Shown: positions 1,756-12,045, counted from the stretch's first letter. The stretch: DNA of 13,169 nt from a virus (IMGVR_UViG_2721755711_000005:1-13169); one strand, 5' to 3'. Numbers and translations: made by a program. The notes: generated by a model not told the origin, from the sequence alone.

Positions 1756-1962
1756 ATGGAAGTAATCAGAAAAATTCTTACCCGTCAGGAAGTAAAAAAT
1801 ATTCTGCGCATCAAGGCAGACAGTTCGCTACAGGACATGATCAACGCCGGAAAATTCCCGAAAGGCTTCAAAATCGGTCTGCGTCGTGTTGGCTGGTATG
1901 AAGATGAGGTGCTGGCCTGGCTGAAAGAACGCGAGGAAGAAGCGCGCGGAACGGCTGCGTAA
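1756..1962 (+). CDS. alpA: AlpA-family (Phage_AlpA) transcriptional regulator / excisionase-like HTH protein
   Basis: 68 aa. ILTRQEVKNILRI...FPKGFKIGLRRVGWYEDEVLAWLKER matches the AlpA signature (helix-turn-helix followed by VGW-E-E---WL--R). GAGGT RBS 8 nt upstream. Position just after int is typical. Confidence 0.85.
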   Translation: MEVIRKILTRQEVKNILRIKADSSLQDMINAGKFPKGFKIGLRRVGWYEDEVLAWLKEREEEARGTAA

Positions 1963-2238
1963 TGGTGTGAGGCGTAACACAATGAACATAACAAAAAGCG
2001 CCCCATTGCCGGAGCGCCCTTGCGAACAATTAGCCTGCCGCACCAAAAATAAATATGTGCAGGGGAATTATATCAACCGTGTGGCGAAGCGCCACAATTG
2101 CCGGATAACGGGCAAAACAAAGGCGACCGCAAAGGGTCGCCAGTGGATATTACGGCAAATCAAACTTGAACGCATCGCCAACAATGCCACATTTGCGGCT
2201 GGTGAGCAATGTGATCAGCGTGCTGGTTTGCTGGTGGG

Positions 2239-2436
2239 CTATTCCTGCTCTTTAGCATCGCCATGCTGCGATGTTTTCCAGGTATGCGATCCCATTTTTG
2301 TGCGCCTGTACTCTTTAAGGAACTTCTCAAGGACAAACGCACATGGCGCGAATCTTTCCTGTTCATGTTCGCTTACCGCGTTTTTGCGTTGTTTTTTCCT
2401 GGATGAAGATAATTTCTTTAATGATTTGTCAGTCAT
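2239..2436 (-). CDS. Hypothetical small basic protein (65 aa), paralogous 3' end to neighbouring small gene
   Basis: Lys/Arg-rich ORF ending ...DAKEQE. Its last codons and stop share DNA identity with the 3' end of gene 2494-2673 (TCCTGCTCTTT core). Confidence 0.4.
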   Translation of the reverse strand: MTDKSLKKLSSSRKKQRKNAVSEHEQERFAPCAFVLEKFLKEYRRTKMGSHTWKTSQHGDAKEQE

Positions 2437-2493
2437 CGTAGATACCTGTAACCCTGTGCGCCACAGTTCACCGCACCACGGCGCTGGTGATGG

Positions 2494-2673
2494 TTACTCC
2501 TGCTCTTTGGCCTTGCGCCGCTGGCGGTACTCAACTTCTCGCTTTAATGCTGCTGTTACAAACTGCCCTGTACTTTCACCAGGCATTTTTACCGCCTCAA
2601 CATTGTTCATAACTTCATGCGGAACCCTTGCCGCAACTGTTTGTGATTTTGCGTTTACTGCTTTTGTCGCCAT
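2494..2673 (-). CDS. Small putative DNA-binding protein (59 aa from ATG 2673; possibly ribbon-helix-helix-like), candidate repressor
   Basis: ORF track starts at GTG 2682, but the in-frame ATG at 2673 has a GAGGGG RBS 8-9 nt upstream. Sequence MATKAVNAKSQTVAARVPHEVMNNVEAV...QFVTAALKREVEYRQRRKAKEQE has a beta-helix-helix-like pattern. Divergent from the operator at 2724-2775. Confidence 0.5.
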   Translation of the reverse strand: MATKAVNAKSQTVAARVPHEVMNNVEAVKMPGESTGQFVTAALKREVEYRQRRKAKEQE

Positions 2674-2723
2674 GTTGTGCACCCCTCACAAAAAACAAAT
2701 GCAGTATGCAGGAAAAAAAATAA

Positions 2724-2775
2724 GTGTTCAACACTTGACGTGTTTAACACCTAGATTTAAATTGGTGTTCAACAC
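2724..2775. promoter_or_regulatory. Operator: three 11-bp palindromes GTGTT(C/T)AACAC in a divergent promoter region
   Basis: GTGTTCAACAC at 2724-2734, GTGTTTAACAC at 2740-2750, GTGTTCAACAC at 2765-2775. TTGACG at 2735-2740 (-35-like) lies between sites 1 and 2; TAAATT at 2758-2763 is a possible -10 after a 17-bp spacer. Confidence 0.6.
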
Positions 2776-2872
2776 CTTATTAATGCAAGGTGCAGAAACG
2801 ACGAAACCCGGCAGTGCGCGAACACTAACCGGGCTTCTAACCACCAACGATAGCAAGATTATCGAGGTAGCT

Positions 2873-3235
2873 ATGAGAAATCATAACCAAACTAAACCCG
2901 AATTTATATACACCTTTACGGCGCTACACCGAGATCGCATGGCTGACGGCGCAACTACGGTACATGTAGCCGCTGACACGCTGGTTGATGCCAGCAGGAT
3001 GGTTAAAGAGATGGGCTACGTTGCGGCGTTCTGGAAAGGGCGCGAAGAAAACACGCTGTTTATTCAGAAATGCGAAAACAATTTTATCTGGCGTTTTATC
3101 GCCCTGAGCACGGCGCAACCGCGCATGATTACCATTGAGGCCACCAGCGAACAGGAAGCACGCCAGCAATCCCCGGCTGGCTGCGTGATGGTATTCGCCG
3201 CCCGTATTCGTCAGGGGGTGCACCATGTGCAATAA
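2873..3235 (+). CDS. Hypothetical protein (120 aa), first gene of plus-strand replication operon
   Basis: In-frame ATG at 2873 within the long ORF 1967-3235, with GAGGT 4 nt upstream. The upstream part of that ORF overlaps the two minus-strand genes and the operator, so only this 3' part is called. Confidence 0.45.
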   Translation: MRNHNQTKPEFIYTFTALHRDRMADGATTVHVAADTLVDASRMVKEMGYVAAFWKGREENTLFIQKCENNFIWRFIALSTAQPRMITIEATSEQEARQQSPAGCVMVFAARIRQGVHHVQ

Positions 3236-3455
3236 AAACACGCCGGACGCAGCAGGCGAAGCATTGAAAGTACTGATACATGCGCTTGTGGATATAAATT
3301 GCATGGTAGAGATCATGGAGAAGAAATCACAGTCGGAGTACGACAAAAGAAAATTTAAAACAATAAAAATAATTACCAAAAACTCACTGACAAAAGCTAC
3401 AGACATCCTCAATGAGGACACTAAAAGAATCAGGGAGAAACTGTGTGATGCATAA
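3225..3455 (+). CDS. Hypothetical small protein (76 aa), largely AT-rich
   Basis: ATG overlaps the stop of the upstream gene; AGGGGGTG RBS. Lys-rich product; the gene runs into a strongly AT-rich patch. Confidence 0.4.
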   Translation: MCNKNTPDAAGEALKVLIHALVDINCMVEIMEKKSQSEYDKRKFKTIKIITKNSLTKATDILNEDTKRIREKLCDA

Positions 3456-3675
3456 AATACCTTTTGATGTTCTTATTCATTCTGAAAACGCATTAATCCG
3501 CGCAAAGGAAATGGAGGCATTATTACTTAAGTTAATGGAAGTGCCGGAAAATGGCGATGAATCATATCCCATGATGTTTTCTGCCGTGCACACATTATTA
3601 ACGCCAGTAATTAACGAATTAAATACGGTGATGGCAATTCACGAGAATAATAAAGCGCATCACACCGGAGAATAA
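3448..3675 (+). CDS. Hypothetical small protein (75 aa from ATG 3448), AT-rich
   Basis: ORF track starts at 3412, but ATG 3448 has an AGGGAGAA RBS about 8 nt upstream and overlaps the stop of the preceding ORF by 8 nt (translational coupling). No family recognised. Confidence 0.45.
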   Translation: MHKIPFDVLIHSENALIRAKEMEALLLKLMEVPENGDESYPMMFSAVHTLLTPVINELNTVMAIHENNKAHHTGE

Positions 3676-3680
3676 AAACC

Positions 3681-3980
3681 ATGAAACAGAAAATTTCTGA
3701 CTTTACTGCCAGCGGCCTCCCTCGGTCTGAAATCCGCCCCGGCGATATTTTCCGGGATAACTACGGCGGCACGGTAACGATTAAACACGTGGCGGGACGG
3801 TGCGTTACTTACCGCCGTGATGGGTACGGCTATGACTGCGTGATGCCTGCTTATCAGTTCCGGCGTGATTTTTCCCTGGTACAGGCAGCGCAACGCAGTA
3901 AGCCCACCAGCAGGGAAAAAGCACGGGAAAATATTAAGAAAATAAAAAGCATGCTCAGCGCATCCAGAGGTAAAAAATGA
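3681..3980 (+). CDS. Hypothetical protein (99 aa)
   Basis: GGAG RBS upstream. Stop overlaps the start of the helicase gene (3977) by 4 nt. Confidence 0.5.
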   Translation: MKQKISDFTASGLPRSEIRPGDIFRDNYGGTVTIKHVAGRCVTYRRDGYGYDCVMPAYQFRRDFSLVQAAQRSKPTSREKARENIKKIKSMLSASRGKK

Positions 3981-5383
3981 AACTGGCACCGAACGTAAAA
4001 CTGTTACCGAAAGATAAACACACTGAGGCGGTTATTTTTGCGGGTGATAATGCTCACTCCTTTGCAGAACATTACATGATTGCACAGGCCAAAAAAGCAG
4101 GCGATCCCATCCCTCCGGTTTACCTGGGCCGTTATCAGTTAAGCGAACTGGACAACTTACAGATTGTTGATGAAGGACGATACAGAGCAAAGGTCATACG
4201 CGCCGGAAACCTGGACGATATGCAGATGCTGACCATTGCCACAAAACTGGCGATCGCCGGAGTCCAGGAGGCGCGGCTACTTTCTGAAAATTTCGAACTG
4301 CTGGAGAACTGGAGCGACCAACTACCACGACTACGGGAAACATGGGAGAGAGGGGAAAGCCTGGTCATGAATGGCAGAAAGCGAAAAATCACGCTTCCCA
4401 TCTCATGGGGTTCTGAGGGATTCGACGCGCAGCAAAGCTACGTAATTAAGGGGCTTATTCCGGCTGAATCATTATGCAGCACCTACGGCGCGAGTGGTTC
4501 CTATAAATCGTTCCTCGCCATTTCCTGGTCGTGCCATGTTGCCACAGGTATGGCATGGGGAGGCCGCAGGGTAAGTAAGGGCGCGGTTATCTATATCGCT
4601 GGTGAAGGCAGCATGGGCGTAAAACGCCGCGTAAAGGCGTGGGAGATAACCCACGACAAGGTGGTTACAGATTTGTGCATCATTAACGCGCCGGTATTCC
4701 CTGCATCGCCTGACTATGTGGAGCAGGTTATCAGGACTGCCGGACTTGTTAAGAGCAGAACGGGCGAAAATGTGCGGCTGATTGTGATCGACACGCTGGC
4801 CCGTTGCTTTGGTGGGAATGATGAAAATGATTCCCGTGATATGGGCGCATTTATCCAGGGGTGTGACGCGATAAAGCAGGCCACAGGGGCCACGGTGCTG
4901 GTGGTTCACCATTCCGGCAAGGATGAAACAAAGGGGGCGCGTGGTTCCAGCGCATTCCGTGCCGCGCTTGATGCAGAGTACCGAATCAGCCGGGAAAATT
5001 CAGACGTTACAGCACTGGTGGCGGCGTGTACGAAGATGAAGGACGCAGAGGAGCCAAAAGAAAGCGCATACGACCTTAAAAGCGTGGAGGTGTTCACCGA
5101 TACAGATGGCGAAGAGATTGTGTCTATGGTGGTGATTGACGTTCCCCGCGCCCCTGCTGAACTGGAACGCATCGAGGAGGCCGGGAACAAGACGGAGAAT
5201 CACGCCGCATTATGGCAGTGCATCAGAACGCGGACGGCACACGGGGAATCATGCACTATTGCCCTGCTGCGCGACGATATGAAAAAGCTGGGGTATGAGA
5301 TGAAGCACTTCCGGCGCTGGCTGTACAAGCTGGAAAAAGACGGCGTGATCACTATCGACGGCAATGACGTGCATCCACTGTAA
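3977..5383 (+). CDS. Replication protein with RecA-fold ATPase domain (AAA_25 / RepA-like helicase)
   Basis: 468 aa. Walker A YGASGSYKS, Walker B RLIVIDTLARCF, and a VLVVHHSGKDETKGARGSSA sensor region typical of RepA/DnaB-like AAA_25 ATPases. Immediately followed by an iteron array. Confidence 0.8.
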   Translation: MKLAPNVKLLPKDKHTEAVIFAGDNAHSFAEHYMIAQAKKAGDPIPPVYLGRYQLSELDNLQIVDEGRYRAKVIRAGNLDDMQMLTIATKLAIAGVQEARLLSENFELLENWSDQLPRLRETWERGESLVMNGRKRKITLPISWGSEGFDAQQSYVIKGLIPAESLCSTYGASGSYKSFLAISWSCHVATGMAWGGRRVSKGAVIYIAGEGSMGVKRRVKAWEITHDKVVTDLCIINAPVFPASPDYVEQVIRTAGLVKSRTGENVRLIVIDTLARCFGGNDENDSRDMGAFIQGCDAIKQATGATVLVVHHSGKDETKGARGSSAFRAALDAEYRISRENSDVTALVAACTKMKDAEEPKESAYDLKSVEVFTDTDGEEIVSMVVIDVPRAPAELERIEEAGNKTENHAALWQCIRTRTAHGESCTIALLRDDMKKLGYEMKHFRRWLYKLEKDGVITIDGNDVHPL

Positions 5384-5585
5384 AAGTGGGGGATAAAAGT
5401 GGGGATAGCGGGGAATTTAACAAAATTGAAACGCTATTCCCCACTTTCTGGCCTGTATACATCCAAAAAAGTGGGGAGTAAAAAATACAATGAAAAACAA
5501 AGAATTAGACTTACCCAAAAAACGAGGTGGGAAGCAAGTGGGAAATTTTAAAAGTGGGGAACAAAAGTGGGGGTAGTGGGGAATG
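5384..5585. repeat. Iteron array, putative satellite replication origin
   Basis: About 8 direct copies of AAAGTGGGGA-like units (5384-5395, 5395-5407, 5465-5478, 5524-5534, 5535-5545, 5549-5560, 5563-5573, 5574-5585) plus one inverted copy CCCCACTTT at 5439-5447, with AT-rich spacers, directly downstream of the helicase gene. Confidence 0.8.
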
Positions 5586-6356
5586 AATAAAGAAAATATG
5601 ACCTGTCAGGGGATGAGCTACAAAGAACGCGAAGCACTCAAGGCCTTTGCGGGGCAGTGTGAGAAGCACGGAGATATACAGAGCCTAACCAGAACGCTGG
5701 TCATGATTGCGCACTGGATGCGACAGAGCAAGGCGGTGAGTTTTACGGAATACGCCAGCCAGTGGACAGAGGCACAGCGTGAACGGAGCGACGGCAATCA
5801 CTCAACACCCGAAATGGCGAAGCAATGGCCTTTCAGTGGTAAACGGTGCATCAATCCGGGCGGATCTGATTATTACCCGTGCGGAACAGAAAAAGAGCGA
5901 CAGAATGATGAGGTGGAAATTAAACACGCAGTAACGGTAATTCTTGCCGCTTACCCATTTTTTAACCGCGATGGACTTGAACTGTACAGCCGTGATAAGG
6001 CATGGGTGCACCCACTTGATTATGCGCCCTTCATGGCGGAGGCGATGAGCTGTTTACGCTGGATAAGGGAGAACAACCTTACCGACTGTAAGATTGCATC
6101 ATTCCCTGGAAAAAATCCGACATCCTACGGCCTGAAACATTGTGTTGAGCGTGTGAATCAGAGAAGAGCTAAGGGCGACGGGCAACCAACAGAGCCGACA
6201 TACATCACAAACGGCGCATTAATCGCCGCAATGGTCGCATCGGGTTATCGGGTGAAGCGAACGGGAAGAATGAACTGCCTGTTTAATATCTCACACAAAC
6301 AGCTTAAGCGCGCACTGATGACAGGACCAGTAAAAACCGGAGAACAGACAGCATGA
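5583..6356 (+). CDS. Hypothetical protein (257 aa); start codon uncertain
   Basis: Long ORF whose stop overlaps the SSB start. Weak RBS at the first ATG; alternative in-frame starts at Met6 and Met11. No family recognised. Confidence 0.55.
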   Translation: MNKENMTCQGMSYKEREALKAFAGQCEKHGDIQSLTRTLVMIAHWMRQSKAVSFTEYASQWTEAQRERSDGNHSTPEMAKQWPFSGKRCINPGGSDYYPCGTEKERQNDEVEIKHAVTVILAAYPFFNRDGLELYSRDKAWVHPLDYAPFMAEAMSCLRWIRENNLTDCKIASFPGKNPTSYGLKHCVERVNQRRAKGDGQPTEPTYITNGALIAAMVASGYRVKRTGRMNCLFNISHKQLKRALMTGPVKTGEQTA

Positions 6357-6775
6357 CAGCACAGATAGCGGCTTACGGGCGGCTGGTGGCTGACCCGCAG
6401 TTAAAGACCACCAGCAAAGGGACACAAATGGCGATGGCGAGTATGGCGGTTCCCCTGCCGTGCAGCCAGGCAGATGACGGAACGGCGACGATGTGGTTAT
6501 CCGTCCTGGCGTTTGGCAGACAGGCCGACGCACTGGCCAGACACCACAAAGGCGAACTGGTGAGCGTGGCGGGTAACATGCAGGTAAGCCAGTGGACAGG
6601 CCAGAACGGCGAAACGCGGCAGGGCTGGCAGGTTATCGCAGACAGCGTAATCAGTGCGCGAACGGCGCGACCGGGCGGCAAAAAAGGTCAACAGGGCCAG
6701 GCTACTGACGCGCTGAACAGGGCAAAACAACAGGCGGGTAATGATGATCCGTACGGGGACAACATACCGTTTTAA
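6353..6775 (+). CDS. ssb: Single-stranded DNA-binding protein (short SSB)
   Basis: 140 aa. N-terminal OB-fold-like region (AAYGRLVADPQLKTT...), Gly/Gln-rich linker and an acidic C-terminal tail DDPYGDNIPF resembling the canonical SSB tip DDDIPF. Confidence 0.8.
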   Translation: MTAQIAAYGRLVADPQLKTTSKGTQMAMASMAVPLPCSQADDGTATMWLSVLAFGRQADALARHHKGELVSVAGNMQVSQWTGQNGETRQGWQVIADSVISARTARPGGKKGQQGQATDALNRAKQQAGNDDPYGDNIPF

Positions 6776-6811
6776 TTCACAACAGCGAACAGAGTTATTA
6801 CAGGGGAAAGC

Positions 6812-7336
6812 ATGACAAAGCTGACCATTAACCGAAAACCGAAAGGCATTTACGGCACGCTGCAGAAAACGACGCAGGCGATACAGCAGCAGGATAAAAC
6901 CACATCGGCGCATAAAGTGATACCCGGCAATCAGAACGCACAGCAGAAGCCCACAGGGGCGACACCGTGGCGGCATATGACCAAACGCCAGCGCAAAAAC
7001 CGCAGACGCGTTAATCGCCTCACTGAGATGTGGCCTGACTTATTCAGCCGGGAAGCGCCAAAACCGCTGAAGGTGGGGATATTCGACGACCTTATGCAGG
7101 ATATCGCCGTCAGGGGGCTGGCATTCGGGCCGGGGGCATTACGTGCGACGCTGGCATCTTATACGCAGTCTCCGCGCTATTACCGCGCCTTAATGGCTGG
7201 TGGGGTACGCTACGACCTGAAAGGCCAGCCATATGGGGAGGTTACACCACAGGAACAGCAGGAGGCAGAAACGCGGCTGATGGCACTGAATGAGAAGCGC
7301 AAACGCCGGGCAGCAAAGGAGAAGACGGGCACGTGA
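6812..7336 (+). CDS. ProQ/FinO-domain RNA-binding protein
   Basis: 174 aa. PLKVGIFDDLMQDIAVRG...LRATLASYTQSPRYYRALMAGGVRYDLKGQPYGEV aligns with the ProQ N-terminal FinO-like domain (PLKIGIFQDL...[35 protein letters not shown]). Basic C-terminal tail. Confidence 0.8.
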   Translation: MTKLTINRKPKGIYGTLQKTTQAIQQQDKTTSAHKVIPGNQNAQQKPTGATPWRHMTKRQRKNRRRVNRLTEMWPDLFSREAPKPLKVGIFDDLMQDIAVRGLAFGPGALRATLASYTQSPRYYRALMAGGVRYDLKGQPYGEVTPQEQQEAETRLMALNEKRKRRAAKEKTGT

Positions 7337-7608
7337 TTCACGACAGCAAAGCGGAAGAACTGGAGGCTAAAGGGCTGTACCGAAGAGCGGCGGCGCGGTG
7401 GGCTGAGGTTATGCAACTGGTGAACACCGATAAGGAGCGCGAACAGGCGGCAAAGCGTCGCGCGGAATGTATCCGTAAGGCAGCACGCTCACCCGTTATG
7501 GCGGATAACTTCGGGGCGCTGAAAGAGGCTGTAAACCGCACTCATGCGGTGATGGGGATGGAAGACGCGGGTAAATCCGTCTGGCGGAACTACCCGAAGC
7601 AGCCCTGA
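7333..7608 (+). CDS. PerC/Pch-family transcriptional activator-like protein, GTG start
   Basis: 91 aa. KAEELEAKGLYRRAAARWAEVM...EREQAAKRRAECIRKA...AVNRTHAVMG matches my recollection of the PerC/Pch signature (LE-GL-RRAA-W--VM...RR--C...NRT). AAGGAG 11 nt upstream; overlaps the stop of the ProQ-like gene. Confidence 0.65.
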   Translation: MIHDSKAEELEAKGLYRRAAARWAEVMQLVNTDKEREQAAKRRAECIRKAARSPVMADNFGALKEAVNRTHAVMGMEDAGKSVWRNYPKQP

Positions 7609-7705
7609 CAGTAACCAGTGATGCCGGATATTATCCTGAAAAATGGCCATCACTCCCGTGGGCGGATAACATAAAATCCCGCATATGCGCACATACACAG
7701 ACGAA

Positions 7706-7728
7706 GCCGGAACACTCCGGCTTTTTTT
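7706..7728 (+). terminator. Rho-independent terminator ending the replication operon
   Basis: GCCGGA-ACAC-TCCGGC hairpin followed by a run of 7 T. Confidence 0.75.
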
Positions 7729-7805
7729 ACGGGTCCTCCTGATGGGGTACCCTTACCGCGGGGCGACGGACGCGCGGAAAACGGCTAATTTTTGAATTTT
7801 TATCG
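7722..7805 (+). repeat. cos-like element A (cosQ-like plus degenerate cosN-like), paired in inverted orientation with 12515-12595
   Basis: TTTACGGGTCCTCC...CGCGGGGCGACGGACGCGCGGAAAACGGCTAATTTTTGAATTTTT resembles the bona fide cos at 8548-8640. Its reverse complement recurs at about 90% identity at 12515-12595. Confidence 0.6.
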
Positions 7806-8074
7806 GTCATCACCACCAGCGCAATTTATTGATAATGAAGGTTAAAAAAATTCCTGGTGTCGAAAACGCCTGTTTTTTGTTCACCACTGAATCATGCCGC
7901 ATCACGATAACCCACAAGGCTGGTGGTGATGCGTTATGCTCCCTACGTTGCCATCCTCCTGACCTCATGGCATTATCCGGCGTGAACGAGCGGTTATTCT
8001 CCGTACTCTTAATCGTTGTTCATGGTTATTTGCTTTGTGGTAGCTTACATTTCCTGATGGTTATTATCCTTCCA

Positions 8075-8098
8075 CCCCGTAATCACGGGGTTTTTTTT
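8075..8098 (+). terminator. Rho-independent terminator in the non-coding region upstream of cos
   Basis: CCCCG-TAATCA-CGGGG hairpin followed by a run of 8 T. Lies inside the compositionally implausible ORF 7829-8167. Confidence 0.55.
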
Positions 8099-8547
8099 GT
8101 CTGCGATTTGCCGTTCTCCGTTGCGCTGGTGGTAACGTCACGACATGTCACCATCACGTCACGCTGATGGCGAAAGTCAGGGTTAACCAGTACCGGAACG
8201 GGTAGCCCGATGTACTGTTACCGTTCTGCTGGCTGGTGGAGTAATTGATAACGGTTATCATCAACGGGAGGGGTGGATCAAATCCCTGTAGTCCTGGCTG
8301 TCAGGGACCGCCGCCCAACCCTTCTTCACATCGCCGCAGGTTCGAAAACTTTTTTTTGGGAAGGTGCGCACAGACTTGATAGATAAAACCTATCAGACAA
8401 AACCACGCCAACCCCGCGCCATTGCTGGCATCGTTAAAAAAACTCACTCCACCAGCAGGCTAAAAAACCGTGATTTTTCCGGTTTTATGGGCTGAAAAGG
8501 GGCTCCCTAAAAAACACCTCTTACACTGCCGGACAGGAGCGGTGGCT

Positions 8548-8770
8548 TTTCACGGGTCCTTTCCGGGGATCTGAAACACCACGGGGCGGCAGACGCGCAG
8601 ATTTTCACTATTTATGAAAATTTTTCAGGGAAAAAGCATGTCGGTACTTCTTGCATGTAACATTATGTTTTTATTGCAACTAACTATCATAAACATACGA
8701 CACCATAACGCCGGAAAATCCCGTTTTTCAGGCGTTTCATGTCGGAGGTGGTTTTTGATGAGGATTTGAT
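8548..8770 (+). other. cos: Lambda-type cos site: cosQ-like (8548-8583), cosN (about 8584-8595), cosB (8596-8770)
   Basis: TTTCACGGGTCCTTTCCGGGGATCTGAAACACCACG|GGGCGGCAGACG|CGCAGATTTTCACTATTTATGAAAATTTTTC closely parallels the phage lambda cos junction as I recall it (...TTTACGGGTCCTTTCCGGTGATCCGACAGGTTACG|GGGCGGCGACCT|CGCGGGTTTTCGCTATTTATGAAAATTTTCC), and sits immediately upstream of a Nu1-like gene exactly as in lambda. Confidence 0.85.
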
Positions 8771-9618: not shown

Positions 9619-9867
9619 TTACGCATCTTTAAAACTGGGTTTGCCATTAGCTAAACGCCAGGTTTTAACTTCTTGTACGATGGCTTCCGGGCTATCGTCT
9701 TTTCCGTTCTCTGGATAAAAAATTAGATCAGAGCCTGATGGATGTTCAGAGAGGCGCCTGAATTCTCTGACTAACTGCTCGCTTTCTTTTTCTGTTCCTT
9801 CTGCATTACATATTTTTCGAACAAGATCTAAGAATTCATTTTCAGTATAGTCGTTTATTGTTTTCAC
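9619..9867 (-). CDS. Colicin/pyocin DNase immunity protein (Im7/Im9 family)
   Basis: 82 aa, GTG start. [82 protein letters not shown] aligns along its full length with Im9 (...[79 protein letters not shown]). One nt separates it from the toxin stop. Confidence 0.92.
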
Positions 9868-9868
9868 G

Positions 9869-11560
9869 TTATTTTCCCCTGTGAATTTCTATATGCCGCT
9901 TTGGTGTTGTGATACCCATATTATCAACGTTATAAACTTCGCCCCCCTCACTTATAGGTTTAATATGGTGTATCTCGTAACGTTCCCTCCCACCAACTCG
10001 ATCCACTTCCCTTGTGAATGGTGAACGTCCTTTGCGAATGTTCGTGAGGTTGTGTGCTCTGAACTGTCTTGACAAATCAGCATCGTTTGCCACTTCTGCC
10101 CAAAATGCCTCCCTGAATCGATCAAAATTCGCAAATGTTCGCCCACGCATCCGCTCCGCAATCTGGCTGGGTACTGGTGCACCATTTCCCTTATCGGCAT
10201 CCACCAGCCACGCCCCGCTAATTTTTTGTCCTTTCCCTGTTACCTGCCCGGCGTTATTCCTGATGTAAATATAAATCGGCGGTATATCCGGGAATGGCAG
10301 GATCAGAATGTAATCCGCAAAATCCTTTTCTTCCGGGGCCGGGCTGGTTGTGGCGTGTAATCCCGTGTCATCCGGTAACGGGTCCACCATCACCGGATTC
10401 GGCAGCACTGGCGGGTACTGATTTCCCGTGTGGTACGGTACATCAATCCCCGGATTATCCGGCGTCCAGATGAGTGTGATACGCGGGTCTTCCTCCGTGG
10501 TGAACGTGTACGCCTTTCGTCTGTCGTCCCACTCCATCCGGCGCACGCGCACCCTGTCCTGTCCCGGTGGCGTGTGCCAGCCATGCGGCACGGGGTTCCC
10601 CCGGCTGTTCGTCTCCCAAGTAAAGCGAACACGGGTAGGCACTTCCCTGACCTGTTCGGCCCTCATACGGTCGATAAAATCCTGCTCCCCGTCATTCAGC
10701 CGGCCGGGCATCATCCCTATCAGAAACGCCGCCAGTGGCAGCCCCGCAACCCCGGTCGCGGTTTCGCCCACGACGGCCCACGTTCCCCGGATGGCAAAAT
10801 TTCCCGCCACCGGACGCAGAACGCTCGCCCCGGCAATTGCCGCTCTGGCCCGTTGTGCGCGCTCCGCTTCCTCAACCGCACGCTGATAATCCATTTCCTC
10901 GTGATGGCCGTTCCACCATTTCCACAGTGCACTGCGTTTCTTCGGCTTCGGAATATCCTCCGGCGCAATCAGTTTTTTCTTTTTGACCGCCTGTGCACGC
11001 TGCGGGGCTTCCGTGTCTGTCACCGGGTCAGTCTGCGGAACGGCCTGATAAATCCCCATCGGTGCAAAGTTGGTATGCGGCTCCCGCTGGTCGCCCGCGT
11101 CGTTGCATCCCGCACCGCGCAGACAGGATTTTGCAAACACCCGGTTACGTTCCCGTTCTTCCTCCCGGCGTTTTTCTTCAGCTTCCCGTTCTGCCCTGCG
11201 TTGTGCTATCAGTTCCGCCTGTTTTTTCTGTGCAATTTCTGCCGGCGACGGCCCCGCCCCCATCCACTGACCGAGCGGGGCAATAATCCGGTTTGAACCT
11301 TCAGGGCAGCCACAGTGAACAACACAGCCATCAACGGCAATGGGAATATCTATCACCTTAAAACGGGCTTCTCCTTCTGCCACCATGCCGGGCTTTCCGC
11401 ACGCCGGGCAGGGAGTGGTTTTGTCTCCCTTACGAATAAGACCGTTACCACAGACGTTGTAGTTAGGGACAGGAAGGGAAGTAATCAGCCATGCGCCGGT
11501 GGTGGTTTTGTCACAGGAAAGCGCCATTCCCCTGCCGTGTATATCCGGTCTGTATGTCAT
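9869..11560 (-). CDS. Polymorphic toxin: Cys-rich N-terminal domain, charged linker, central domain of unknown function, C-terminal colicin E9-type HNH DNase
   Basis: 563 aa. The C-terminal ~130 aa ([49 protein letters not shown]...[55 protein letters not shown]) align with the colicin E9 DNase domain, including the HNH motif. N-terminus has multiple Cys ([16 protein letters not shown]). GGAG RBS 8 nt upstream; ATGA overlap with the upstream gene. Confidence 0.9.
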
Positions 11561-12045
11561 GGCTTACACTCCGGCACCAGAAAATCCGCTGGCATACTTT
11601 CGCCTTCACGACAACAAAGTAACGTTATTCGCTGCGGCGTACTGATAATCTCATCCCCGTTATCCAGTTGGCTGCCAACCAGAGCATACCCTTTTCCGTG
11701 ACAACTGAACGCACTGCCGGAACCGCTGATAATACGGGCCGTAGTGCCGTCCTGATACGTCACCTCATCCCCGACCATCGCCATTTCTGCCATCTCTCCG
11801 GTGCTGTCAGCGACTTCGCAGCCGGAACTGGCGGAAGACACCACCCCGCCATTACGGGTAAGGCTACCGGTAGTGGCATGTCGCCAGATAGCCACAATCG
11901 GATGTTGACGGCAAAATTCCTCCTGCTCCCTGATTATCGCCAGCGCATCATCGGACATATCAGCAAGCGCTTCCTCTGTGAAAGGGGATTTATCCAGTTC
12001 TGCCAGTACATCGGCGGTCAGTTCGTTGGTATATTGCTTCATCAT
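11557..12045 (-). CDS. Hypothetical protein (162 aa) co-transcribed with the toxin: acidic helical N-terminus, Gly/Ser-rich C-terminal half, Cys cluster; candidate PAAR-like partner, adaptor or chaperone
   Basis: First gene of the minus-strand operon, translationally coupled to the toxin by an ATGA overlap. C-terminal half AMVGDEVTYQDGTTARIISGSGSAFSCHGKGYALVGSQLDNGDEII is loosely reminiscent of PAAR-type repeats; ends with LLCCREGES...PECKP. Confidence 0.6.
   Translation of the reverse strand: MMKQYTNELTADVLAELDKSPFTEEALADMSDDALAIIREQEEFCRQHPIVAIWRHATTGSLTRNGGVVSSASSGCEVADSTGEMAEMAMVGDEVTYQDGTTARIISGSGSAFSCHGKGYALVGSQLDNGDEIISTPQRITLLCCREGESMPADFLVPECKP

What the first reader, a model, noticed from the sequence alone, without database searches (positions are those of the whole stretch)
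3225..3675. AT-rich pair of tiny overlapping ORFs embedded in the replication operon
Two translationally coupled small ORFs (about 76 and 75 aa) sit in a segment whose base composition is clearly more AT-rich than the flanking genes, suggesting separate acquisition. Small, fast-evolving gene pairs early in satellite or phage operons are frequently host-takeover, anti-defence or helper-interference factors.
Basis: inference. Interest (0 to 1): 0.4.

Follow-up and report, generated by a model that had tools for sequence, protein, structure and literature searches.

The report
Small coupled genes in satellite operon
The two tiny overlapping genes are real, conserved protein genes of unknown function: two interchangeable "cassettes" in a variable row of small genes that E. 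coli phage satellites (PICIs) carry just ahead of their replication genes.

Summary
ORF1 (3225-3455, 76 aa) and ORF2 (3448-3675, 75 aa) overlap by 8 nt, sit in the lowest-GC stretch of the window (0.38 vs 0.51) and belong to the AlpA-controlled early operon of an E. coli PICI. The gene order is int, alpA, Icd-like, ORF1, ORF2, rgdR/DUF4222, RepA helicase.

Both are under purifying selection (dN/dS 0.39 and 0.20) and are predicted to fold as two-helix hairpins. They are not an obligate pair and are not related to each other.

The slot between Icd-like and rgdR holds an ordered array of 1-4 translationally coupled small genes. ORF1 belongs to an optional family (B). ORF2 belongs to a family (D) that takes the last position in 80 of 93 distinct slots and is AT-rich in every element. 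The cassettes reassort almost independently of their neighbours.

No function could be assigned: Pfam, NCBIfam, PADLOC, PDB and BFVD gave nothing, and the only family matches are PHROGs of unknown function. The families are satellite-specific and almost confined to Escherichia/Shigella.

By position they correspond to P4 epsilon/orf151 and P1 ant, genes coupled behind an Icd-like ORF. I therefore favour early helper- or host-directed binding proteins, but this is inference only. The finding is of modest interest. A conserved SymR-like antisense RNA over the Icd-like start codon was noticed in passing.

The parts
1756..1962 (+). alpA-type activator gene of the satellite. It is the upstream regulator of the operon that contains the finding.
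   Evidence: Pfam Phage_AlpA, E 4.5e-8. AlpA is the master activator of Gram-negative PICIs (PMC6092414; PMC11773190).
2800..2872 (-). Candidate SymR-like cis-antisense RNA covering the Shine-Dalgarno and start codon of the Icd-like ORF, the first gene of the coupled chain.
   Evidence: Rfam symR scores 33.3 bits, below the gathering score of 61. MFE is -36.8 kcal/mol, z = -5.98. The element is present in 100 of 132 loci with an Icd domain, and 94 of 101 hits have an ATG at the edge. The minus-strand consensus has 27 pairs, 64 G-U cells and 5 compensatory pairs, against 20 pairs on the plus strand.
2873..3235 (+). Icd-like ORF. The conserved domain is at 3083-3217. The start is taken as the conserved GAGG-N8-ATG at 2873; an internal in-frame ATG at 3011 is also possible.
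   Evidence: NCBIfam phage_ICD_like, E 4.9e-20. Conserved leader and ATG. The stop overlaps the ORF1 start by 11 nt.
3225..3455 (+). ORF1, 76 aa, pI 8.8. It is an AT-rich allele of optional cassette family B (phrog_5146) and is predicted to be a two-helix hairpin.
   Evidence: phrog_5146, E 1.8e-10. 16 close clusters and 341 family clusters, all named 'hypothetical'. dN/dS is 0.39 in frame against 0.61 and 0.57 in shifted frames. AF2 pLDDT 88, helices 9-34 and 38-75. 34-62% identical to family B genes of CFT073, JP538 and others.
3448..3675 (+). ORF2, 75 aa, pI 5.4. It belongs to family D (phrog_2196/5796), which always sits last in the slot, immediately upstream of rgdR. It is predicted to be a two-helix hairpin.
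   Evidence: phrog_2196, E 6.5e-9. 85 clusters. dN/dS is 0.20 in frame against 0.92 and 2.27 in shifted frames, from 29 alleles. AF2 pLDDT 85, helices 6-30 and 39-72. Family D is in the last position in 80 of 93 slots and never elsewhere. Family GC is 0.32-0.42.
3681..3980 (+). rgdR homologue (DUF4222), a basic 99-aa regulator (pI 10.3). It is translationally linked to ORF2 and to the helicase.
   Evidence: Pfam DUF4222, E 2.2e-23. 68% identical to ECs1581 (RgdR) of Sakai. RgdR is characterised in PMC3378721.
3977..5383 (+). RepA-family (AAA_25) replicative helicase, the end of the coupled chain.
   Evidence: Pfam AAA_25, E 3.9e-43, and phrog_2850. RefSeq names it 'helicase RepA family protein' in the relative L136.

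Best explanation
SHOWN. ORF1 and ORF2 are two unrelated, genuine small-protein genes. They are cassettes of a modular array of 1-4 translationally coupled genes of about 50-110 aa (most 60-90). The array fills the slot between the Icd-like ORF and rgdR(DUF4222)-replicase in the AlpA-controlled early operon of Escherichia PICI satellites. ORF1 belongs to the optional family B. ORF2 belongs to family D, which nearly always occupies the last position next to rgdR. The cassettes recombine almost independently of their neighbours and of the replicase or capsid module type. Each product is predicted to be a roughly 75-aa antiparallel two-helix hairpin with no enzymatic or DNA-binding signature.

INFERRED (expression). 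When a helper phage induces alpA, the operon is transcribed. Ribosomes that initiate at the Icd-like ORF are handed on through the 4-11-nt stop/start overlaps and the single 5-nt gap, so ORF1, ORF2, RgdR and the helicase are made together. The Icd-like ribosome-binding site is covered by a conserved SymR-like antisense RNA, which would gate this chain.

INFERRED (function). The hairpins act stoichiometrically by binding other proteins. They sit where P4 has epsilon/orf151 and P1 has ant, that is, genes coupled behind an Icd-like ORF that neutralise a repressor. They are also satellite-specific, modular and highly divergent between subtypes. For these reasons I favour early modulators aimed at helper-phage or host proteins (derepression or takeover) over components of the replication machinery. 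ORF2 would supply a general function and ORF1 an optional, perhaps helper-specific, one.
For: - Coding: dN/dS is 0.20 (ORF2) and 0.39 (ORF1) in frame, against 0.57-2.27 in shifted frames. Conserved homologues were found.
- Array: an ordered Icd-[A]-B-[C]-D-DUF4222 layout appears in E. coli genomes and IMG/VR contigs. Family D is in the last position in 80 of 93 slots.
- Modularity: Spearman correlation of pairwise distances is 0.09 for D vs DUF4222, -0.01 for D vs Icd and 0.40 for B vs D. D subtypes occur with all four replicase types and all capsid module types. Natural B-C and B-D fusions exist.
- Fold: pLDDT 85-88, two helices each.
- Satellite specificity: tblastn finds nothing in 50,697 phage records and essentially nothing in plasmids.
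- Positional analogy: the P4 'cI 137-aa' ORF carries an Icd-like domain (E 7.8e-21) and is followed, with an 8-nt overlap, by epsilon, the helper derepression protein. In P1, icd is overlapped by ant1 and is annotated as required for ant expression, with C4 RNA blocking the icd site. A Yersinia-type satellite carries a D-like gene in the same kind of chain, in an operon that also encodes an AntA-domain protein.
- Antisense RNA over the Icd-like RBS.
Against: - No sequence or fold similarity to epsilon, Ant or any characterised protein. hmmsearch against P4 proteins gives E > 0.2, and Foldseek finds nothing below E 0.1. The functional part therefore rests on position alone.
- A near-universal, position-locked gene under purifying selection (family D) fits a housekeeping role in the satellite at least as well as an arms-race role.
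- There is no expression, interaction or phenotype data. PICIs are induced by their helper, so the need for a derepressor is less obvious than it is for P4.
- Translational coupling and the antisense RNA are inferred from sequence only.
Confidence: 0.45

Rival explanations
1. Internal satellite regulators. ORF2 (acidic) is a partner, chaperone or antagonist of the basic DNA-binding protein RgdR encoded next to it, or it is a Cnr-like modulator of replication initiation. ORF1 would be an accessory to it.
For: - Family D is fixed immediately upstream of rgdR, with a 5-8-nt gap, in 80 of 93 slots.
- The charges are opposite: pI 5.4 against 10.3.
- Purifying selection is as strong as in the neighbouring genes.
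- P4 has the copy-number regulator cnr/ORF106 at the position before its primase.
Against: - There is no co-variation between D and DUF4222 alleles (Spearman 0.09). D subtypes combine freely with both RgdR types and all four replicase types.
- About 10 of 93 slots have an unrelated last gene.
- RgdR alone, expressed from a plasmid, restores LEE activation without z1841, the D homologue (PMC3378721).
Confidence: 0.25
2. Translation-relay ORFs. Their main role would be to pass ribosomes from the regulated Icd-like start to rgdR and the replicase. This would extend control by the antisense RNA down the operon, and the peptides themselves would matter little.
For: - All junctions are 4-11-nt overlaps or a 5-nt gap, with the Shine-Dalgarno inside the upstream gene.
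- The C-terminal residues of each cassette are dictated by the next gene's Shine-Dalgarno and start. Examples are HTGE* before rgdR and HVQ* before family B.
- P1 gives a precedent: icd translation is needed for ant.
Against: - dN/dS of 0.2-0.4 and confident, conserved helical folds show selection on the proteins themselves.
- Elements with one cassette work with the same chain, so extra cassettes such as ORF1 are not needed for relay.
- Distinct families keep a fixed order.
Confidence: 0.1
3. A type II toxin-antitoxin or other two-gene addiction or defence module embedded in the operon.
For: Two small overlapping genes of about 75 aa, one basic and one acidic.
Against: - The two genes do not co-occur obligatorily.
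- No promoter-like site lies upstream beyond chance expectation.
- There are no TA or defence family hits in Pfam, NCBIfam or PADLOC.
- The genes sit inside a longer coupled chain.
Confidence: 0.03
4. The AT-rich segment is primarily a DNA or RNA element, such as an origin, an H-NS nucleation site or a spurious ORF region, rather than coding sequence.
For: It is the lowest-GC stretch of the window. AT-rich DNA is a typical H-NS target in E. coli (general knowledge).
Against: - Frame-specific purifying selection.
- No iterons or repeats, and no promoter or terminator excess.
- The PICI ori lies after the replicase in EcCICFT073 (PMC6739421).
- A DNA-level role could coexist with coding but cannot replace it.
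Confidence: 0.03

Closest known systems
Satellite phage P4 left operon: Vis/ORF88, Icd-like 'cI 137-aa' ORF, epsilon (helper derepression), orf151, cnr/ORF106, alpha primase
   Same: - Same operon logic and gene order: an AlpA/Vis-type HTH, then an Icd-like ORF, then small genes joined by 8-nt overlaps, then a small regulator, then the primase or helicase.
- ORF1 and ORF2 occupy the place of epsilon and orf151.
   Different: - No detectable sequence similarity to epsilon, orf151 or cnr.
- The PICI slot is a variable array of several families.
- The gene before the replicase is RgdR/DUF4222, not DUF5375/cnr.
- P4 immunity uses the same-strand CI RNA, whereas here the conserved structure is on the opposite strand.
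Phage P1 immI operon: c4 RNA, icd, ant1/ant2
   Same: An Icd-like ORF heads a translationally coupled chain. Its ribosome-binding site is the target of a small RNA. The next, overlapping gene is a protein-binding antirepressor.
   Different: - Ant is a 347-aa protein unrelated to ORF1 or ORF2.
- C4 is a processed same-strand RNA acting in trans.
- P1 is a phage, not a satellite.
RgdR (ECs1581, DUF4222) locus of the E. coli O157:H7 cf-PICI Sp7/CP-933C (OI-51) and of EcCICFT073 (C1493)
   Same: - Same locus type. ECs1578-1580 in Sakai and the four small ORFs in CFT073 fill the same slot.
- ECs1580/Z1841 is a distant family D member (phrog_5796 plus phrog_2196, E 5.9e-11). CFT073 carries B and D homologues.
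   Different: - Only RgdR has been studied (PMC3378721).
- The small ORFs upstream have no reported function and were outside the EcCICFT073 interference screen (PMC6739421).
- Identity to the window's ORFs is only 25-43%.
PHROG families phrog_5146/phrog_2512 (ORF1) and phrog_2196/phrog_5796 (ORF2)
   Same: HMM membership, E 1.8e-10 and 6.5e-9. phrog_2512 corresponds to the natural B-C fusion of 154 aa.
   Different: These families carry no functional annotation. Their members are satellite or prophage-region proteins, not proteins of deposited phage genomes.
SymR/symE antisense pair (for the element at 2800-2872, minus strand)
   Same: A two-hairpin cis-antisense RNA overlapping the Shine-Dalgarno and start codon of the gene on the other strand.
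   Different: The score is below the Rfam gathering threshold (33 vs 61 bits). The target is an Icd-like ORF, not symE. Expression is untested.

Membership tests
PICI (phage-inducible chromosomal island), Gram-negative AlpA type (element level) | Integrase, alpA activator, own replicase, no tail or lysis genes, size about 10-15 kb, packaging-redirection or small-terminase gene | tested here: met
   The window carries int, AlpA, a RepA helicase, SSB, PerC and a Nu1-like TerS, with no tail or lysis genes. Close relatives are 10-13-kb IMG/VR contigs and islands at tRNA-Pro or roxA, including EcCICFT073.
PICI (element level) | Induction and mobilisation by a helper phage | not testable with these tools
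   Shown experimentally only for relatives such as EcCICFT073 (PMC6092414).
phrog_5146 (ORF1) / phrog_2196 (ORF2) | Significant match to the family HMM over nearly the whole length | tested here: met
   ORF1 residues 1-69 of 76, E 1.8e-10. ORF2 residues 1-71 of 75, E 6.5e-9.
Antirepressor/derepressor coupled behind an Icd-like ORF (P4 epsilon, P1 Ant) | Located directly downstream of, and overlapping, an Icd-like ORF in an early operon | tested here: met
   The Icd-like stop overlaps the ORF1 start by 11 nt. In D-only elements the D gene overlaps Icd-like by 8 nt.
Antirepressor/derepressor coupled behind an Icd-like ORF (P4 epsilon, P1 Ant) | Sequence or fold homology to epsilon or Ant | tested here: not met
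   hmmsearch of the B and D profiles against P4 proteins gives E > 0.2. blastp of epsilon against B finds 21 aa at E 0.012 in a tiny database. No Pfam AntA, ANT or Bro hits.
Antirepressor/derepressor coupled behind an Icd-like ORF (P4 epsilon, P1 Ant) | Binds and inactivates a helper (or own) repressor | not testable with these tools
   Needs interaction or induction assays.
Type II toxin-antitoxin module | Two genes that always co-occur as a unit | tested here: not met
   ORF2-type genes occur without ORF1 in most elements.
Type II toxin-antitoxin module | Homology to known toxin or antitoxin families; own autoregulated promoter | tested here: not met
   No Pfam, NCBIfam or PADLOC hits. No promoter-like site lies upstream of ORF1.
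Known anti-phage defence systems (PADLOC) | Match to a defence-system protein model | tested here: not met
   0 families for ORF1 and ORF2 at E up to 1. Anti-defence protein libraries were not available, so that side is untested.
Encapsulated-ferritin-like hairpins (EncB/EncFtn), the top Foldseek hits | Significant structural match | tested here: not met
   Best E-values are 0.37-0.54 at about 10% identity. This is a generic two-helix hairpin resemblance.
Rfam SymR (RF01809), for the neighbouring antisense element | Score at or above the gathering threshold (61 bits) | tested here: not met
   33.3 bits. The architecture and position are SymR-like, so it may work like SymR but is not filed as a member.

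The most novel reading that the evidence does not exclude
The slot between Icd-like and rgdR is a recombining cassette array of small hairpin proteins. Each would neutralise a particular helper-prophage repressor or a host or phage factor, making a modular epsilon/Ant-like toolkit that sets which helpers a PICI can exploit. The whole chain would be gated at the Icd-like ribosome-binding site by a SymR-like antisense RNA and propagated by translational coupling. ORF1 would be a helper-specific module and ORF2 the general one.
Probability: 0.15. Interest if true: 0.65.

Novelty: new member of a known kind. Interest (0 to 1): 0.3.

Why it matters
PICIs are abundant in E. coli: the Icd-like/ORF/rgdR segment 3100-3800 matches in 1160 of 5426 complete genomes. 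They move virulence regulators such as RgdR and PerC. Their early genes upstream of the replicase have never been tested.

Showing that this region is an ordered, freely recombining array of small satellite-specific proteins gives concrete candidates (families B and D) for how these satellites talk to helper phages or hosts. It also provides a simple framework for experiments: cassette presence or absence, translational coupling, and the antisense RNA. By itself, though, the finding is two conserved hypothetical genes, which is an ordinary result for a mobile element.

Tried and rejected
- Family scans of ORF1 and ORF2 (Pfam, NCBIfam, PADLOC) found nothing above noise.
- PDB sequence profiles gave a best E of 0.05.
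- Foldseek of both AF2 models against PDB, and of ORF2 against BFVD, gave only generic hairpins at E of 0.1 or worse.
- Paralogy between ORF1 and ORF2 was rejected (hhalign probability 0.3%).
- tblastn against deposited phages found no match. Against plasmids it found none for ORF2 and one weak partial hit for ORF1.
- A deep profile search with family D found only 14 representative clusters among 1.84 billion proteins. At the fringe the family reaches Yersinia.
- The genome-contig scan with DUF4222 returned only one locus because the patterns were too narrow.
- An ori, iteron or promoter reading of the AT-rich DNA found no repeats and no site excess.
- Co-evolution of D with RgdR, Icd or the replicase was not found.
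- The C4/CI RNA Rfam family gave no hit in the window.
- Literature searches found nothing on these ORFs. 'icd' in PMC10111431 refers to isocitrate dehydrogenase and is irrelevant.
- The matches H42-H49, labelled 'single-stranded DNA-binding protein', are IS-riddled remnants in which an ORF2 fragment abuts a truncated ssb gene. They are not a real fusion family.

Full report
**1. Observation**

ORF1 runs from ATG 3225 to TAA 3455 (76 aa). ORF2 runs from ATG 3448 to TAA 3675 (75 aa). They overlap by 8 nt.

The segment 3225-3675 has GC 0.379 against 0.509 for the whole window and is the lowest-GC stretch of the window. GC3 is 0.45 and 0.37, against 0.52-0.67 in the other genes of the element. 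Two complete same-strand ORFs of at least 70 aa arise in only 0.03% of shuffles of the segment. RefSeq annotates the same two CDSs as hypothetical proteins in close relatives.

**2. Context**

The window is an AlpA-type PICI satellite of E. coli. Its genes are:
- integrase (1-1242)
- AlpA (1756-1962)
- a YlcI/YnfO-family gene on the minus strand (2494-2682)
- an Icd-like ORF ending at 3235
- ORF1 and ORF2
- a DUF4222 gene (3681-3980)
- a RepA/AAA_25 helicase (3977-5383)
- SSB, a ProQ/FinO-domain protein, PerC and a Nu1-like small terminase

The nearest relative for this segment is a PICI at tRNA-Pro in strain CEA224S, 99.6% identical over 3225-3675.

The DUF4222 gene is a homologue of RgdR, 68% identical to ECs1581. 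RgdR is a basic 99-aa regulator with non-specific DNA binding. It activates LEE1, represses motility, and is reported to be encoded by all analysed E. coli PICIs (PMC3378721, PMC6092414).

All junctions in this part of the operon are tight:
- Icd-like to ORF1: 11-nt overlap
- ORF1 to ORF2: 8-nt overlap
- ORF2 to rgdR: 5-nt gap
- rgdR to helicase: ATGA overlap

Each Shine-Dalgarno lies within the preceding gene.

**3. Are they genes?**

Yes. ORF1 has 16 close protein clusters and ORF2 has 85, all from Escherichia or Shigella.

On alleles collected from E. coli genomes and IMG/VR contigs, Nei-Gojobori dN/dS gave:
- ORF2: 0.20 in frame, against 0.92 and 2.27 in the two shifted frames
- ORF1: 0.39 in frame, against 0.61 and 0.57
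- rgdR: 0.38
- Icd-like: about 0.3

AlphaFold2 predicts a confident antiparallel two-helix hairpin for each protein (pLDDT 88 and 85).

**4. Anatomy of the locus across elements**

The two ORFs are not related to each other (hhalign) and are not an obligate pair. A distant blastn of 3225-3675 hits 221 of 5426 complete genomes, but only 42 carry both ORFs. Most have the ORF2-type gene directly behind Icd-like.

Annotated examples and 47 + 80 IMG/VR loci show that the slot between Icd-like and rgdR holds 1-4 small coupled genes in a fixed order, Icd-[A]-B-[C]-D-rgdR.
- ORF1 is a member of family B (phrog_5146). It is 34-62% identical to the B genes of EcCICFT073, JP538 and others.
- ORF2 is a member of family D (phrog_2196/5796).

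With an iterated profile, a D-family gene occupies the last position in 80 of 93 non-redundant slots and never any other position. ECs1580/Z1841 of O157 Sakai is a distant member.

Pairwise distances of D are uncorrelated with those of rgdR (Spearman 0.09) and of Icd-like (-0.01). B and D are moderately linked (0.40). D subtypes occur with all four replicase types and all capsid-module types.

Natural B-C fusions exist, as does a B(N-terminus)-D fusion. The last residues of every cassette depend on which cassette follows, because they are co-encoded with its Shine-Dalgarno and start. Examples are HTGE* before rgdR and HVQ* before family B. The picture is one of gene-sized modules exchanged at conserved junctions.

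**5. Composition**

Low GC is a constant property of family D: mean 0.38, range 0.32-0.42 across 71 members. For ORF2 it therefore does not mark a recent acquisition by this element.

Family B elsewhere has GC of about 0.52. The window's B allele group is the AT-rich one (0.38) and, in this sample, always lies directly before D. ORF1 is thus an optional and compositionally unusual cassette.

**6. Function searches**

- Pfam, NCBIfam and PADLOC gave no hit. The only family matches are PHROGs of unknown function.
- PDB sequence profiles and three fold searches gave only generic hairpin resemblances, with E of 0.05 or worse.
- A profile of family B retrieves 341 clusters, all hypothetical.
- A profile of family D finds only 14 representative clusters among 1.84 billion proteins, with a fringe member in Yersinia.
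- Neither ORF is found in 50,697 deposited phage genomes, and practically not in plasmids.
- In the literature, the EcCICFT073 interference screen covered only genes after the ori (PMC6739421). I found no study of the small ORFs.

**7. Comparison with known systems**

The operon is syntenic with the P4 left operon. The C-terminal part of P4's historical 'cI 137-aa' ORF is an Icd-like domain (NF033153, E 7.8e-21). It is followed, with 8-nt overlaps, by epsilon (helper derepression), then orf151, cnr and the alpha primase.

In P1, icd is overlapped by ant1. The record notes that icd is required for ant expression and that C4 RNA blocks the icd site.

ORF1 and ORF2 therefore occupy the position of epsilon/orf151 and Ant. 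They share no detectable similarity with any of these proteins.

**8. A conserved antisense element upstream**

Just upstream, on the minus strand (2800-2872), lies a two-hairpin element that resembles SymR.
- Rfam scores it at 33 bits, below threshold.
- Folding gives z = -5.98.
- Its edge abuts a conserved GAGG-N8-ATG that starts the Icd-like ORF.
- It is present in 100 of 132 loci.
- G-U pairs and five compensatory pairs favour the minus strand: 27 pairs against 20 on the plus strand.

It is a plausible gate for the whole coupled chain.

**9. Interpretation**

Shown: these are two genuine, unrelated, satellite-specific small hairpin proteins. They belong to a modular, ordered and recombining cassette array in the PICI early operon.

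Inferred: they are co-expressed by translational coupling after AlpA activation, and they act by protein binding.

My preferred reading is early helper- or host-directed modulators. It rests on positional analogy, modularity and subtype divergence, and I put the overall confidence at about 0.45.

The main rival, at 0.25, is an internal role with RgdR or in replication. Fixed adjacency and opposite charge favour it. The lack of co-variation weakens it, as does the fact that RgdR works without the D homologue. Relay-only ORFs, a toxin-antitoxin pair and a purely non-coding reading are unlikely.

**10. Verdict**

The finding is a new member of a known kind, namely uncharacterised early accessory genes of phage satellites, and is of modest interest (0.3).

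Noticed in passing
window 2800-2872 (-), abutting ATG 2873: A conserved SymR-like two-hairpin antisense element lies over the Shine-Dalgarno and start codon of the Icd-like ORF. Folding gives z = -5.98. It is present in 100 of 132 related loci. G-U and compensatory pairs favour the minus strand. Rfam symR scores 33 bits, below the gathering score of 61. It may be the functional analogue of P1 C4 or P4 CI RNA for PICIs.
   Followed up: partly
window 1967-3235 (+): One uninterrupted 422-codon frame runs from just after alpA to the end of the Icd-like domain. It overlaps the minus-strand ylcI/ynfO gene (2494-2682). In the relative L136, RefSeq annotates a partial Icd-like pseudogene (9669-9902) at what appears to be the corresponding 5' end. 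Only the C-terminal Icd domain scores.
   Followed up: no
window 9619-12045 (-): The island carries cargo after terS: a PAAR protein (11557-12045), a PAAR/S-type-pyocin/colicin-DNase toxin (9869-11560) and its colicin/pyocin immunity protein (9619-9867). Related PICIs match only the flanks, so this is an inserted T6SS-effector-like cassette in a phage satellite.
   Followed up: partly
window 6812-7608 (+): The satellite encodes a ProQ/FinO-domain RNA-binding protein (6812-7336), overlapped by a PerC-family activator (7333-7608).
   Followed up: no
L001 (NZ_CM135183.1) 5316-20494: One of the closest relatives of this segment (97.6% identical over window 3100-3800, with an identical ORF1 protein) lies in a capsid-forming PICI. 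That PICI is inserted in the large-terminase gene of a Stx2e prophage and carries its own terminase, which is a helper-embedded satellite configuration (compare PMC10111431).
   Followed up: no
L008 4001-4465; P0104; L004-L008 junctions: Natural fusions of cassettes exist: B-C as one 154-aa ORF (= phrog_2512), and the first 8 residues of B fused to D. The C-terminal residues of each cassette are dictated by the Shine-Dalgarno and start of whichever cassette follows. This suggests recombination at conserved junctions.
   Followed up: partly
L140 (Logan SRR18516942 contig) 2996-8653: An element, probably from Yersinia (an almost identical protein in the same 90% cluster is from Y. enterocolitica), has AlpA, an AntA-domain protein, a chain of small coupled ORFs that includes an Ash-family protein and a D-like gene, and then a D5/Pox_D5 primase. 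The D superfamily and this operon style therefore extend beyond Escherichia.
   Followed up: no
L003 (NZ_CP043033.1) 6001-6413 and hits H42-H49: In several genomes the first roughly 125 nt of an ORF2-type gene abut a truncated ssb gene inside an IS-rich remnant. This is a decayed PICI, not a functional fusion.
   Followed up: yes
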